Source of the DNA: Thermoanaerobaculaceae bacterium
GTDB lineage: Bacteria > Acidobacteriota > UBA4820
NCBI GenBank assembly: GCA_012798145.1
Contig: JAAZNT010000333.1
Span: forward strand, 1-24,926
DNA length: 24,926 bases
Reading direction: 5' to 3'
The position numbers and the translations under genes are program-made. The notes under the pieces were generated by a model. It did no database searches, was not told the DNA's origin, and saw only the letters and a list, made by a program, of their open reading frames with translations. This document shows positions 15,006 to 18,352 of the stretch, piece by piece. Position 1 is the stretch's first letter. Every line of letters begins with the position of its first letter.

Positions 15006-15108
15006 GTCATCCTGAACGCTCCTTCGAAGCAAATACCCCTGAAGGATCTCCCCACTTCGAAGCGACAAGATTCTTCAAGGGTCAAGAACGAGGGAAACAA
15101 TCAGAATG
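15006..15108. repeat. REP-like palindrome (GTCATCCTGA...TCAGAATGAC type) whose right end is interrupted by IS110
   Basis: Left end gtcatcctga, inner arms cctgaaggatct / agattcttcaagg, right end tcagaatg. The missing 'ac' resumes at 16349 on the far side of the IS. Confidence 0.8.
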
Positions 15109-15123
15109 TTCCATATCGATTTG

Positions 15124-16119
15124 TCAAGCCTCCATATAGGAATAATAATTTTTATCGTAAAAAGTTCTGTTCTTAAGACAAGCAAAGCAGATCCTAATAA
15201 GTTTGTTTGCTACGGCTATAAGAGCGACTGATGATTCTTTCCCTTTTTGCCTAAGCCTTTGGTAAAAAAGGCGGCATCCTTCATTGTGTTTTGAAGCAGA
15301 TAAAGCACATAGATAAAGAAGTTTTCTTAGGTAAGCATTCCCTTTCTTACTTATTCTTCCTCTTTTATTTACTGATGTTCCAGATTGATAAGGGCTTGGG
15401 CATATCCCAACAAAACTTGTAACCTGCCTCCCCGTTTCAAAGGATTTAAAACTTGAGAGCATCGAAACTATTGCAGCAGATAATCTTTTGCCAACTCCGG
15501 GAATGCTTTTGAGAATCTCAATATCCTCGCTAAAGTTATCAGAAACCAAAGACTTTATTTCGTCTTCCAATTTCTTTATTTGCTTTTTCAAATTTTCAAT
15601 CGTTTTTCTATATGGATTGACCAGTTCAGGTGTGCATACAGGATAGTTCTTTAGCGCGTTCATTTGATTTCCAAAAATGTTGATGGCTTTTTGAAAATCC
15701 TCTATCGCCTTCAGTTTGATTTCTATTTTATACTGCACATCGCTCTTCGGCGTAAACATCTTTAACTCTTCTTCATACCTTCCATAGTTCGCTATTATCT
15801 TTGCGTCAGCCTTGTCTGTCTTCGCTCTCTTCATCTTCATCTCTGAATATTTCTTGATTACAAAGGGATTTACAACAGAAACACTGTAACCGCATTCATA
15901 CAAATGGCAGGAAAGCTTTAAATGATAATTACCTGTGTTTTCCATAATTACAAGGATATTTGATTTGTCAATCCCTTTTAGAATCTTTGAAACCTTCTTC
16001 TCAAAAACAAGGCTTGAGTTCTTGCAGGAAAATTCAATTTCCTTCTCTTTCCCTAAAATGGCTACAGAAACTTCCTCTTTTGAAACATCAACACCAACTA
16101 CCGCTTTCCATTCATTCAT
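15124..16119 (-). CDS. IS110 family DEDD recombinase/transposase, 331 aa
   Basis: RuvC-like DEDD residues (VGVDVSK, MENTG, KTDKADA), SIPGVG, P..YQSG (catalytic Ser region) and ISKKGNAYLRKLL. The ATG at 16119 has AGGAG upstream and is preferred over the track's 16170. Confidence 0.95.
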   Translation of the reverse strand: MNEWKAVVGVDVSKEEVSVAILGKEKEIEFSCKNSSLVFEKKVSKILKGIDKSNILVIMENTGNYHLKLSCHLYECGYSVSVVNPFVIKKYSEMKMKRAKTDKADAKIIANYGRYEEELKMFTPKSDVQYKIEIKLKAIEDFQKAINIFGNQMNALKNYPVCTPELVNPYRKTIENLKKQIKKLEDEIKSLVSDNFSEDIEILKSIPGVGKRLSAAIVSMLSSFKSFETGRQVTSFVGICPSPYQSGTSVNKRGRISKKGNAYLRKLLYLCALSASKHNEGCRLFYQRLRQKGKESSVALIAVANKLIRICFACLKNRTFYDKNYYSYMEA

Positions 16120-18352
16120 CTTTTTCTTCTCCTTTCTTGACTTTCTTTCTTTCTTCCTGTAGCCTATCATCGTAGTGGAATTCAGGCTTCATTAGCCTAA
16201 TGTTCCATTCAGGCTTAAGGAAAGTGAAGGTGGGAACAGCATTCCGAACGGTTTTTTTTACCAATGACTGCTTGTTCTTTACCACCTTCACTTTTCCATT
16301 GTAACAGTTCCAAAAACAAAATTTCCATAAGAAAGTTAATATACGATGACTGCTTTTAGTGGCAACTCTTCTCATTTCTCCATCCACCAAATATTTTACC
16401 ACTTTTTTGGAAGCAAAGCCACTTATGGGATTGATGATTTTGTCTTTATCAATTTGATAATTGTGGCTTGTTGAATTTTCTGAAGGCGAGTTTAATGTAT
16501 CGCTATATGCATTTCCCTCTTCATCTCTGTAAACAACGCCTTCAACCCAATCGCCTTTGAGCAATTCAGAATCAATTGACCTTATTCCCCAGTAGATTTG
16601 GGTCTGCCCTTCAGATATCGGGATTTCCACCCTGTTTGTCGTTTTTCTGTTGCCGTCTTTTGCTGTCGTGTAGGGAGGACCTATTTCTCCTATGTAAATG
16701 TCAGGTTCTTCATAGTTTGTCCCTGCATAAACTTCATAAGTCAGAGATGATTGAGGTGTTAAGTCGTCTCTGCCGTAGTTCCATTCAAGGATTATTTTCT
16801 CTCCTTCATCATATACAGAAACAACTGAAGGAGGCTCGGGTGGACTATTCAAAATAAGGCTCTCCTCAGCAGAATTCACTATCGCCTCTCCTGTGTAAAT
16901 ATCCATCGTCTTCACACCAACCGCTGCAAAGTCAAGTATCTTGTCCCCGTCAAAATCTCCCGCCGCAACAGCGGTGATTTTTCCATCAAGAATAAGTCCT
17001 GTCCTTAGAAGACCTCCATTGCCGTTGTTCTTCAGATAACAACTTTTATTCGCTTCTTCTGTCACACACAAAAGCCCAGGAAGCCCGCTTCCGTCAAGAT
17101 CGCAAAATACCACCTGTCTTACATTTGGAAGGGAAATTCCGCTTTCCATATAACCCGCCTCCCAGGTGTGAGCAAGAGGCCTTATTGAAATGTCAGATGT
17201 TGTGTCGGGCTTGAAAAGATATACCAAAGGATCGTTTTTTCCCTGCCTTCCAACCTCTATGTCCAAAAATCCATCCCCGTTGGCATCTTTTGCATCCACC
17301 GACGAAATCGCGCTTCCCGTCAAAATTTTTTCTTCTTCCCAAAGATGCAAATCTTCCTCTGTAGCGTAGAAGAAACTCAAACCATTTTTCCCGGCGCAAA
17401 GAATGTCCATAAGCCCATCATTGTTCATATCTGCCAACTGCAAATCATTAATGTCAAGTGAGGTGTAAATAACCTCGTCAAGGGTAAACCCGCAAGAAGG
17501 CTCATATTTTAAAATAGATATTTTGGTTTTTGAGCCTAAAACTATTCTCACCTTTCCATCAAGGTTTAAAGGAATGTAGCCGACCGCAAAGGCTGAAATG
17601 TCTTCATCAAGGTCAAAAGAGTAACCCAATTCAAAATGATCCCCATAATTCATTTCCGCCTGCAAACGCCTTTTGGAAGCGATTATTCTGTCAAGGTAGC
17701 GATCACCATTTAAATCAAATAATCTTATTTTGTCCCCATCACCTGCGGTTGTGCTCAATTCGGAGGAAGCGTTGACAAATGTCCCATCAGGGCTTGCCTT
17801 AAACAAAGCGTTTTGCACGACAAGGTCGTATGCGGCGTCTCCGTCTAAGTCTCCAACTTTTATGTCGGGTTGGGATAAATCTATTTTAATTGGTAAAGGA
17901 ATTATCTTCGGCTTTGGCAGAGTGGATCGTGGGGCAGGCGTAATCTCGCTTTCCTCATCATTTATCAAAGCGGAAACCCCATAAGTCAACGAACTATCAC
18001 TCAAGCATCCATTTGCGTCAAATTTGTATTCCGTTCCTCCGTTAGCCTTAATTTCACCTATCAATTTCGGATTTGACCTTGATTCACTTAAAATGTAAAT
18101 TCTAAAGGAGGTGTAAGCACAGGCACTTTGATCGTCAACGGTGAAGTAGATAGTGTCATTTGGCGAAGAATTGATGTCGTAGGAAAGACAGACAGTTGAA
18201 GCCCACAGCGGTTTTAATGGGATTTCAGGCGTTGCTCTTGCAACAACCTCTTCGCTCCAAGGGCTTAATATTCCCGTTTCTTCATCATAGGCTCTCACCA
18301 TTATTGTGTAATCCTCGCAAGCCGAAGGAAGCGTCAGGACATATCCATACAC
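16112..18352 (-). CDS. C-terminal part of the giant surface protein (FN3, FG-GAP/VCBS repeats, FN3); last 77 aa are read-through into the IS110 left end
   Basis: In frame with the upstream ORF after one TAG. It begins with the second half of an FN3 domain (YTIMVRAYDEETGILSPWSEEV) and has FG-GAP motifs (GDLDGDAAYDLVV, DLNGDRYLDRI, ADMNNDGLMDIL, DANGDGFLDI, GDFDGDKILDFA). Confidence 0.7.
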   Translation of the reverse strand: MYGYVLTLPSACEDYTIMVRAYDEETGILSPWSEEVVARATPEIPLKPLWASTVCLSYDINSSPNDTIYFTVDDQSACAYTSFRIYILSESRSNPKLIGEIKANGGTEYKFDANGCLSDSSLTYGVSALINDEESEITPAPRSTLPKPKIIPLPIKIDLSQPDIKVGDLDGDAAYDLVVQNALFKASPDGTFVNASSELSTTAGDGDKIRLFDLNGDRYLDRIIASKRRLQAEMNYGDHFELGYSFDLDEDISAFAVGYIPLNLDGKVRIVLGSKTKISILKYEPSCGFTLDEVIYTSLDINDLQLADMNNDGLMDILCAGKNGLSFFYATEEDLHLWEEEKILTGSAISSVDAKDANGDGFLDIEVGRQGKNDPLVYLFKPDTTSDISIRPLAHTWEAGYMESGISLPNVRQVVFCDLDGSGLPGLLCVTEEANKSCYLKNNGNGGLLRTGLILDGKITAVAAGDFDGDKILDFAAVGVKTMDIYTGEAIVNSAEESLILNSPPEPPSVVSVYDEGEKIILEWNYGRDDLTPQSSLTYEVYAGTNYEEPDIYIGEIGPPYTTAKDGNRKTTNRVEIPISEGQTQIYWGIRSIDSELLKGDWVEGVVYRDEEGNAYSDTLNSPSENSTSHNYQIDKDKIINPISGFASKKVVKYLVDGEMRRVATKSSHRILTFLWKFCFWNCYNGKVKVVKNKQSLVKKTVRNAVPTFTFLKPEWNIRLMKPEFHYDDRLQEERKKVKKGEEKDE
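16160..16331 (-). ncRNA. Predicted bridge RNA (target-binding loop plus donor-binding loop) of the IS110 element
   Basis: Two stem/internal-loop/stem modules whose four loop strands match the left and right target flanks and the left and right donor ends. The 5' and 3' ends are estimates. Confidence 0.8.

What the first reader, a model, noticed from the sequence alone, without database searches (positions are those of the whole stretch)
15101..16355. IS110 is aimed at the terminus of a REP-like palindrome
In-silico excision gives ...aatcagaATGactgctttt..., restoring TCAGAATGAC, the partner of GTCATCCTGA at 15006. The guide-encoded target (GCAGTCATTCYGA) is therefore a REP end. The neighbouring REP starts with the related atgcagtcac (14885-14894). 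REP targeting is known for IS621 and some other IS110 members. Here it can be read from the guide, and it involves a GTCATYCYGA-type repeat. The guide specifies C where this site has T, suggesting wobble-tolerant targeting of a repeat family (inference).
Basis: partly seen in the sequence, partly recalled or inferred. Interest (0 to 1): 0.7.

Follow-up and report, generated by a model that had tools for sequence, protein, structure and literature searches.

The report
Bridge-RNA IS110 in a repeat terminus
A 1,240-bp RNA-guided IS110 insertion sequence sits exactly at the end of a repeated ~106-bp element, its guide RNA spells out that end, and this is a well-documented habit of the family rather than a new mechanism.

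Summary
An IS110-family element occupies window 15109-16348 on the minus strand, with the triplet CAT (ATG on +) at both junctions. It splits TCAGAATG|AC, the right 10-nt terminal inverted repeat of a ~106-nt module whose left end is GTCATCCTGA at 15006.

Its upstream non-coding end folds into a two-loop bridge RNA.
- Target loop: AAGCAGUCAU / UCGGAAUG.
- Donor loop: AUGGAACAU / UACGAUG.
- Both match the flanks and the IS ends. The right target guide has one G·T position.

Three related IS lineages (58-74% aa identity) keep the scaffold and change the guides together with their flanks. Two of them sit at other termini of the same repeat superfamily (GTCAT|CCTGA, GTCAT|TGCGA).

The interpretation needs four corrections.
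- The ten intact module copies in this genome that keep the exact terminus read ...GAATGACGCT, not ...GAATGACTGC.
- The full 15-nt cognate site occurs empty only in other metagenomes.
- Near-identical IS copies also sit in non-repeat DNA, one of them inside a gene, matching only the right guide.
- The module has inverted termini but is not a strongly folding palindrome.

REP targeting, guide-versus-target single mismatches, natural reprogramming and half-matches are all published for IS110 elements. Verdict: a new member of a known kind, of modest interest.

The parts
15109..16348 (-). IS110-family insertion sequence, 1,240 bp counting one copy of the shared CAT. In element orientation the LE starts CGTATATTAAC and the RE ends ATATGGAA-CAT.
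   Evidence: the same 1,240 bp (0-3 differences) occurs in other flanks. Similarity in other runs runs 15104-16349.
15106..15108 (-). Shared core triplet CAT (ATG on +) at the RE/right-target junction. The second copy is at 16346-16348.
   Evidence: CAT is present at both junctions of the window, L030-L040 and C165 where the contig reaches them.
15124..16119 (-). Recombinase gene, 331 aa (DEDD RuvC-like domain plus Tnp domain).
   Evidence: Pfam PF01548 4e-22 and PF02371 3e-26. Full-length match to the ISCro4 (9t56, 6e-37) and IS621 (8wt6, 1e-35) recombinase structures.
16224..16291 (-). Target-binding stem-loop of the bridge RNA. The left target guide AAGCAGUCAU is + strand 16264-16273. The right target guide UCGGAAUG is + strand 16240-16247.
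   Evidence: Consensus fold of 4 lineages. MFE -57.1 kcal/mol, z -3.95. The guides vary with the flanks in relatives.
16153..16223 (-). Donor-binding stem-loop. AUGGAACAU (+ 16200-16208) is identical to the RE end. UACGAUG (+ 16168-16174) is complementary to the LE start CATCGTA.
   Evidence: The guides and the IS ends are invariant in all four lineages.
15005..15108 (+). Repeat module B (~106 nt), interrupted two bases before its end. Left terminal repeat GTCATCCTGA is at 15006-15015. Right terminal repeat is TCAGAATG (15101-15108) plus AC (16349-16350).
   Evidence: 13 related copies in the MAG, 10 of them with the exact intact terminus TCAGAATGAC.
16346..16369 (+). Left-target flank ATGACTGCTTTTAGTGGCAAC. 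This is the inverted 'A-head' repeat piece (GTTRCCRCTAAAA..GCAGTCAY). Its first 10 nt equal the left target guide.
   Evidence: Compare 14869-14894 on the + strand.
14837..14997 (+). Neighbouring repeat units: hairpin module CCCCTCGCCTCTCAGGAGAGGGGCAGGGGTGAGG, the A-head, and an A-type palindromic element GTCACTGCGAG...CTCGTGATGAC.
   Evidence: 58 GTCAYTGCGA sites in the MAG, and at least 45 A-type hits in the same-genus genome G001.

Best explanation
This is an IS110-group insertion sequence that moves by bridge-RNA-guided recombination. Its 226-nt left end encodes an RNA with two internal loops.

The donor loop pairs with the element's own joined ends (…ATGGAA-CAT-CGTA…). The target loop pairs with AAGCAGT-CAT on one strand and CAT-TCCGA on the other. 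The recombinase exchanges strands within the shared CAT, so the element is inserted without a duplication.

The window copy went into a site that matches the left guide 10/10 and the right guide 7/8 plus one G·T pair. That site is the last ten bases of a repeated ~106-nt module (GTCATCCTGA…TCAGAATGAC), joined here to an inverted piece of a second repeat.

All members of this IS clade keep the guide parts GUCAU and UC…AUG. These fit the constant frame GTCAY-NNN-GA found at the ends of a whole superfamily of repeat modules. Only three right-guide bases and the outer left-guide bases change between lineages.

Shown here: the anatomy, the guide/flank matches, co-variation in relatives, multiple insertion sites, and one occupied/empty pair. 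Inferred from the IS621 paradigm: the circular intermediate, strand exchange within CAT, and expression of the RNA from a junction promoter (TTGACA-N18-TATATT, formed only when the ends are joined).
For: Protein:
- Pfam DEDD_Tnp_IS110 and Transposase_20.
- Full-length similarity to the solved IS621 and ISCro4 recombinases.

RNA:
- A conserved two-stem-loop fold in 4 lineages.
- z -3.95; none of 200 shuffles folds as well.

Right guide versus right flank:
- Window: UCGGAAUG vs CATTCTGA.
- L035: UCAGGAUG vs CATCCTGA, 8/8.
- L036: UCGCAAUG vs CATTGCGA, 8/8.
- L037: UCGCAAUG vs CATTGCAT, 6/8.

Left guide versus left flank:
- Window 10/10.
- L040 8/10.
- L036 8/10.

Donor guides equal the IS ends in all lineages.

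L035's flank is a B-like module left end, and L036's flank is an A/C-type palindrome end homologous to this genome's C98 element.

The exact 15-mer AAGCAGTCATTCCGA lies empty at the other end of the element that L036's IS occupies. The T variant lies empty at the right end of GTCATCCTGA…TCAGAATGAC elements in L045, L084, L059 and L074.

A second insertion into a B terminus is L032, matched by the empty C386 copy.

The loop geometry fits the published rule: the 5' strand pairs with the bottom strand over 8-9 nt, the 3' strand pairs with the top strand over 4-7 nt, and the core is included in both (PMC11208160).
Against: - No RNA data, no circle junction and no empty allele of this locus were seen. 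No joint 15108->16349 appeared in 4 runs, and the metagenome scan found none.
- Copies with the identical guide have left flanks matching only (G)TCAT: GCGTCAT, CAATCATCAT, TTAATATCAT. Left-guide pairing is therefore not required in practice.
- Two of about five distinct sites are not in repeats.
- Logan contigs can join the left and right flanks of different copies. Only single junctions, not flank pairs, are safe, except L030/L103 and L033/C367.
- Which two of the three CAT bases form the true core is not resolved.
Confidence: 0.87

Rival explanations
1. The element is not aimed at repeats as such. It needs little more than TCAT|TCYG (a right-guide half-match), and it is found in repeat termini only because these are the most numerous such sites in the genome.
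For: - 11 of the 17 GTCATTCYGA sites in the MAG (16 intact plus the occupied one) are repeat termini.
- Insertions with the same guide occur in an open reading frame (C367 site ATCAT|TCTGT) and beside unrelated genes (L030/L103 TATCAT|TCCTA).
- One-sided 'half-matches' are reported as the commonest configuration at IS110 boundaries (bioRxiv 10.64898/2026.08.14.744561).
Against: - The left guide AAGCAGTCAT matches the extended terminus AAAGCAGTCAY of the repeat family. It matches empty sites in L036, L045 and L084 over all 10 nt, which is unlikely if it were unused.
- Related lineages have guides tuned 8/8 to other termini of the same family.
Confidence: 0.3
2. The present flanks are not the original target. 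Recombination between two IS copies, one at an A-head and one at a module B end, created a hybrid locus, and the in-silico excision product never existed.
For: - No other copy of TCAGAATGACTGC exists in the genome.
- Intact B copies are followed by GCTCAAGC.
- A second IS variant sits next to an A-head-like piece on C165.
Against: - The hybrid site is exactly what the target loop encodes (10/10 and 7/8 plus a wobble).
- The same junction TCAGAATGAC|TGCTTTTAG exists uninterrupted in other metagenomes (L045, L084, L074).
- The C165 copy is a different variant (3 differences in 65 nt).
Confidence: 0.07
3. The repeat modules are non-autonomous derivatives of this IS (MITE-like), and the similarity between guide and repeat end reflects common descent rather than targeting.
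For: The modules have 10-nt inverted termini and are numerous. Their ends share GTCAT with the site next to the IS.
Against: - The module ends (GTCATCCTGAACGC…) show no similarity to the IS ends (CGTATATTAAC…, …CGATATGGAA).
- The donor guides match the IS ends only.
- The modules are abundant in same-genus genomes where no copy of the IS was found.
Confidence: 0.03

Closest known systems
IS621 of Escherichia coli (IS110 family; bridge RNA; Durrant et al. 2024, PMC11208160; Choi et al. 2003)
   Same: - Recombinase fold and domains (1e-35 to PDB 8wt6).
- ncRNA in the left end with a target loop and a donor loop.
- Core included in all four pairings.
- Inserts at a fixed position in a repeated extragenic element.
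- The guide differs from the commonest natural target at one position (ATCGGGCCTAC encoded, ATCAGGCCTAC used).
   Different: - Shared triplet CAT instead of the core CT.
- Longer right guide (core plus 5 nt).
- The target is the terminal inverted repeat of ~106-nt modular repeats in an uncultured bacterium, not a 35-nt REP hairpin.
- Nothing has been tested experimentally.
ISPpu9 / ISPpu10 of Pseudomonas putida (IS110 family occupants of REP; PMC12288879; PMC1525189; bioRxiv 10.64898/2026.03.19.712850)
   Same: Every or most copies are inserted at the same position of a repeated palindromic element. For ISPpu10, a stem-loop in the target adds specificity.
   Different: - In the fully cognate site (L036), GCAGTC-ATTCC-GACTGC could form a hairpin. 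The window site lacks the second arm.
- Copies outside repeats exist here.
ISEc11 / ISXne4 natural re-direction (seekRNA; Siddiquee et al. 2024, PMC11187229)
   Same: Closely related transposases (about 72% identity there, 58-74% here) with a conserved RNA scaffold and exchanged target-matching segments.
   Different: - Those are IS1111-type with the RNA downstream of the gene.
- Here the re-direction stays within one repeat superfamily, moving between different module ends.
IS4321 / IS5075 (IS1111 family; Partridge & Hall 2003, as cited in PMC11208160 and PMC11187229)
   Same: [quoted passage not shown]
   Different: A different subgroup, and the target is Tn21-family transposon ends. I know this only from the titles cited and did not read the paper here.

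Membership tests
IS110 family (IS110 subgroup, bridge-RNA recombinase elements) | N-terminal DEDD RuvC-like domain (PF01548) | tested here: met
   4.1e-22, residues 25-159 of the 348-aa frame. D (GVDVSK), E (IMENTG) and D..D (KTDKADAK) are visible in the alignment.
IS110 family (IS110 subgroup, bridge-RNA recombinase elements) | C-terminal Tnp domain (PF02371) with the conserved serine | tested here: met
   2.6e-26. YQSGTS aligns with YESGSS of ISCro4.
IS110 family (IS110 subgroup, bridge-RNA recombinase elements) | Long non-coding end upstream of the gene, very short downstream end, and no terminal inverted repeats | tested here: met
   226 nt lie between the LE start and the ATG at 16119, and 15 nt lie between the stop codon and the core. 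The ends CGTATATTAAC and CGATATGGAA are not inverted repeats.
IS110 family (IS110 subgroup, bridge-RNA recombinase elements) | ncRNA with two internal loops. In each, the 5' strand is identical to the top strand left of the core and the 3' strand is complementary to the top strand right of the core. | tested here: met
   compared with the rule quoted.
IS110 family (IS110 subgroup, bridge-RNA recombinase elements) | Guide and target co-vary across orthologues | tested here: met
   Four lineages carry three different right guides, which match their flanks 8/8, 8/8, 7/8 plus a wobble, and 6/8. This is a small sample.
IS110 family (IS110 subgroup, bridge-RNA recombinase elements) | Scarless insertion: no target duplication beyond the shared core | tested here: met
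   Occupied L033 versus empty C367 (…ATCAT|TCTGT…). L032 versus the C386 module end.
IS110 family (IS110 subgroup, bridge-RNA recombinase elements) | Circular double-stranded intermediate with a promoter formed at the RE-LE junction; the RNA is expressed and bound by the recombinase | not testable with these tools
   Only the sequence is available. The joined ends give TTGACA-N18-TATATT, conserved in L035-L037. All runs laid were DNA contigs.
REP / BIME elements (repetitive extragenic palindromes) | Short (about 20-40 nt) imperfect palindrome able to form a stable hairpin | tested here: not met
   Module B is about 106 nt. As single-stranded DNA its MFE is -10.5 kcal/mol with z +0.37, and only the 9-bp termini pair in the centroid. 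The neighbouring A-type unit looks palindromic on reading, but I did not fold it.
REP / BIME elements (repetitive extragenic palindromes) | High copy number, between genes, often clustered in mosaics | tested here: met
   111 BLAST hits on about 80 contigs of a 2.1-Mb MAG, often in tandem mosaics and at contig ends. The window copy lies between a tRNA and a gene's 3' end.
REP / BIME elements (repetitive extragenic palindromes) | Cognate RAYT (Y1 HUH transposase, PF01797) in the genome | tested here: not met
   No PF01797 match in the MAG. The MAG is 88.6% complete, so absence is not proven.

The most novel reading that the evidence does not exclude
A clade of IS110 elements has co-diversified with one superfamily of modular repeats whose units all end in GTCAY-NNN-GA. 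The clade hops between module types by changing only three right-guide bases.

Because the recombinase accepts half-matches, it may itself recombine module ends with one another. That would make it the agent that shuffles these modules into the mosaics seen at GTCAY joints, such as the unusual 'module B end :: inverted A-head' joint occupied in this window.
Probability: 0.12. Interest if true: 0.6.

Novelty: new member of a known kind. Interest (0 to 1): 0.33.

Why it matters
The case gives a clean natural example, in uncultured sludge and hot-spring bacteria, of how bridge-RNA elements choose 'safe' repeated sites. It shows how relatives are re-aimed by a few guide bases within one repeat superfamily. 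It also shows that in nature the right guide half is enough for some insertions, including into a gene.

This is useful as comparative data for bridge-recombinase specificity and for annotating the repeats that fragment this MAG. It does not open a new mechanism.

Tried and rejected
- Rfam (E up to 1) finds only the tRNA at 14489-14570 and no family for the ncRNA.
- No copy of the IS was found in 40 relatives, including two same-genus genomes. Their orthologous flanks are only about 70% identical, or not found, so they give no empty site.
- The exact 15-mer AAGCAGTCATTCYGA occurs in 1 of 401 genomes of the phylum. That is no more than the reversed control, so it is not a widespread repeat among the sampled genomes.
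- The metagenome scan for TCRGAATGACTGCTTTWA gave 61 hits, about the chance number. Only 4-6 lie in GTCATYCTGA-type elements, and none is the orthologous locus.
- Contigs of 4 runs laid on the window show no joint across 15108->16349. This is no evidence of absence, because contigs break in these repeats.
- A search for alleles of the FG-GAP protein found only the window's own product.
- No Y1/RAYT gene was found.
- I considered a one-base bulge in the left guide. It would raise the match to canonical B flanks from 5/10 to 8/9, and to the L036 flank from 8/10 to 9/9. Two cases are too few, so I leave it as an idea.
- The preprint 'Half-match recombination…' (10.64898/2026.08.31.748434) could not be opened. 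Only its title and the start of its abstract were seen.
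Full report
**1. What is there**

The minus strand of window 15124-16119 encodes a 331-aa protein. It carries the two Pfam domains of IS110 transposases, PF01548 and PF02371. Over its whole length it resembles the solved ISCro4 and IS621 bridge recombinases (E 6e-37 and 1e-35).

The element is 1,240 bp (15109-16348). The triplet CAT (ATG on the + strand) is present at both junctions, at 15106-15108 and 16346-16348.

The boundaries do not rest on this window alone.
- In Logan contigs of four other metagenome runs, similarity to the window always starts at 15104 and stops at 16349-16350, and different DNA follows.
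- Five contigs from other samples carry the same 1,240 bp with 0-3 substitutions.
- One of those insertions (L033) has an uninterrupted counterpart in this very genome: contig C367, …CCAACCATCAT|TCTGTATCC….

**2. The guide RNA**

The 226-nt left end lies upstream of the gene. In element orientation it folds into two stem-loops (MFE -57.1 kcal/mol, z -3.95, 0 of 200 shuffles as good). The same fold is the consensus of four lineages.

Loop 1 carries AAGCAGUCAU on its 5' strand, identical to the 10 nt left of the element. Its 3' strand, UCGGAAUG, is complementary to CATTCCGA, whereas the site reads CATTCTGA. That gives one G·T position.

Loop 2 carries AUGGAACAU, which equals the right end of the IS. 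It also carries UACGAUG, complementary to CATCGTA at the left end.

This is exactly the geometry described for IS621. The 5' strand of each loop pairs with the bottom strand over 8-9 nt. The 3' strand pairs with the top strand over 4-7 nt. The core is included in all four pairings (PMC11208160). Rfam has no model that matches.

**3. Co-variation**

Relatives were fetched by their proteins: P0002 at 74%, P0003 at 73% and P0004 at 58% identity. All are 1,240-1,241 bp, have the same ends and donor guides, and all have GTCAT to their left. Their target guides differ, and the flanks differ with them.

| Lineage | Right guide | Right flank | Match |
|---|---|---|---|
| L035 | UCAGGAUG | CATCCTGA | 8/8 |
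| L036 | UCGCAAUG | CATTGCGA | 8/8 |
| L037 | UCGCAAUG | CATTGCAT | 6/8 |

The left guides (GACCGGUCAU, GGGUUGUCAU, GAACUGUCAU) match their flanks less well, at 6-8 of 10.

**4. The repeat**

The MAG is 2.1 Mb in 443 contigs and 88.6% complete. It is full of a modular repeat: 111 BLAST hits to the 380 nt around the insertion, many at contig ends.

The units are:
- a hairpin (CCCCTCGCCTCTCAGGAGAGGGCGGGGTGAGG);
- an 'A' unit (GTTTCCGCTAAAAAAYGCAGTCAC|TGCGAG…GCGAAGCAGTCTTCC), in places extended to a palindromic element;
- a 106-nt 'B' unit, GTCATCCTGAACGC…ATCAGAATGAC.

Counts in the MAG:

| Motif | Occurrences | Expected | At unit ends |
|---|---|---|---|
| GTCATCCTGA | 20 | about 3 | 14 at B left ends |
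| GTCATTCYGA | 16 | about 8 | 10 at B right ends, 1 at a C98 palindrome end |
| GTCAYTGCGA | 58 | not computed | about 55 in A units |

All unit ends share the frame GTCAY-NNN-GA.

Unit B itself is not a good palindrome. As single-stranded DNA it folds no better than shuffles (z +0.37), and only the 9-bp termini pair. No RAYT gene was found. 'REP-like' is therefore fair for copy number and location, but not for structure.

**5.

In all ten B copies that keep the exact terminus, TCAGAATGAC is followed by GCTCAAGCATCCCC (GCGC in two copies), not by TGCTTTTAGTGG. The reconstructed 13-mer is unique in the genome.

The left flank in the window, GTTGCCACTAAAAGCAGTCAT in element orientation, is an inverted A-head. 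Compare GTTACCACTAAAAAATGCAGTCAC at 14869-14894. The occupied site is thus an unusual joint of two units.

It is nevertheless a natural kind of site.
- The exact 15-mer AAGCAGTCAT-TCCGA, with the C that the guide specifies, lies empty in L036. It sits at the far end of the very palindromic element whose near end is occupied by L036's own IS. That element is homologous to C98 of this genome.
- The T variant followed by TGCTTT(T)A lies empty at the right end of GTCATCCTGA…TCAGAATGAC elements in unrelated metagenome contigs L045, L084, L059 and L074.

**6. Other insertions of the same IS**

With the same guide, the junctions found are:
- GCGTCAT|IS|CAT-TCTGATTGTCTCCC. This is a canonical B end; its flank is 98% identical to the empty copy on C386 (L032).
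- GCGTCAT|…|TCTGAAGGTTTCC (L031).
- TTAATATCAT|…|TCCTAATTTT (L030). The same right junction lies on an 11.7-kb contig, L103, with unrelated genes and no match in this MAG.
- CAATCATCAT| (L033). Its empty counterpart, ATCAT|TCTGT, lies inside an open reading frame of C367.

The right half is always close to the guide (TCYGA, TCCTA, TCTGT). The left half is often matched only in (G)TCAT. So the element is not confined to repeats, and left-guide pairing is dispensable in practice.

One-sided 'half-matches' have been reported as the most enriched configuration at natural IS110 boundaries (bioRxiv 10.64898/2026.08.14.744561). A caution applies: short Logan contigs may join flanks of different copies, so I rely on single junctions.

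A second IS variant in the MAG sits at a contig end (C165; 3 differences in 65 nt). It abuts AAAAAATGTCAT. That is the left end of the C98-type palindrome, which is normally followed by TGCGAGG. Its guide is not assembled.

**7. Mechanism**

What is shown:
- the anatomy;
- the four guide/DNA matches;
- co-variation;
- several independent insertion sites;
- scarless junctions.

What is inferred from IS621:
- excision to a circle;
- strand exchange within CAT;
- expression from a promoter that exists only in the circle. The joined ends read TTGACA-N18-TATATT, with the recombinase stop codon inside the -35 box, and this is conserved in the relatives.

**8. Comparison with what is known**

Insertion of IS110-family elements at a fixed position of REP elements is long known. 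Examples are IS621, ISPpu9, ISPpu10 and ISPa11 (PMC1525189; PMC11208160).

IS621 shows the same discrepancy between guide and commonest target. In that work, 74.5% of sites were ATCAGGCCTAC, while the loop encodes ATCGGGCCTAC.

Natural re-direction between relatives is also published (ISEc11 and ISXne4; PMC11187229).

What is specific here:
- the host, an uncultured lineage found in sludge, bioreactor, soil and hot-spring runs (12 studies);
- the CAT triplet;
- the 8-nt right guide;
- related lineages dividing up the different ends of one modular repeat superfamily.

**9. Verdict**

This is a new member of a known kind, with interest about 0.33. The most novel reading not excluded is that this recombinase, through half-match recombination, also shuffles the repeat modules at their GTCAY joints. 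I give that about 0.12.

Noticed in passing
G000 contig C165:4587-4672 (locus L002): A second, diverged copy of the IS left end (3 differences in 65 nt) sits at a contig end. It abuts GGTTTCCGCTAAAAAATGTCAT, the left terminus of the C98-type palindromic repeat. This suggests a sister lineage with a different right guide in the same genome.
   Followed up: partly
window 15109-15150 joined to 16320-16348 (circle junction): Joining the IS ends creates TTGACA-N18-TATATT, with the recombinase stop codon TGA inside the -35 box. Both hexamers are conserved in L035, L036 and L037.
   Followed up: partly
window 16112-18352 (-): The FG-GAP-repeat ORF reads through the left target flank and 81 codons into the IS. 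After in-silico excision it would instead end 8 codons into repeat module B. Its true C-terminus is therefore uncertain.
   Followed up: no
window 16368-16433 and G000 contig C324:161-228: A 66-nt stretch encoding …KKVVKYLVDGEMR… is shared (96%) with another contig. There, too, it is followed by an A-type repeat. It may be a conserved C-terminal segment of paralogous surface proteins that ends in the repeats.
   Followed up: no
window 14860 joined to 16346 in run X1 (table 5): One contig joins the hairpin module to ATGACTGCTTTT… and skips 1,485 nt, with a shorter side of only 24 nt. It could be another allele of the FG-GAP 3' flank or a repeat-driven misjoin. I could not resolve which.
   Followed up: no
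L064:2434-2451 and L069:4534-4551 (JGI metagenome contigs): A 25-nt identity (TCAGAATGACTGCTTTTAGTGGCAA) to the reconstructed empty site lies inside what looks like coding DNA, with no repeat module beside it. This is more than the 18-nt search pattern alone explains.
   Followed up: no
window 16264-16273 versus the left flanks of L032 and L036: If the fifth base of the left guide is left unpaired, the match rises from 5/10 to 8/9 for canonical B flanks and from 8/10 to 9/9 for L036. This may be a register flexibility of the left guide, or chance.
   Followed up: no
window 14468-14584: The tRNA (Rfam RF00005, 59.7 bits at 14489-14570) shows a strong depth spike and many loose ends in all four runs laid.
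   Followed up: no
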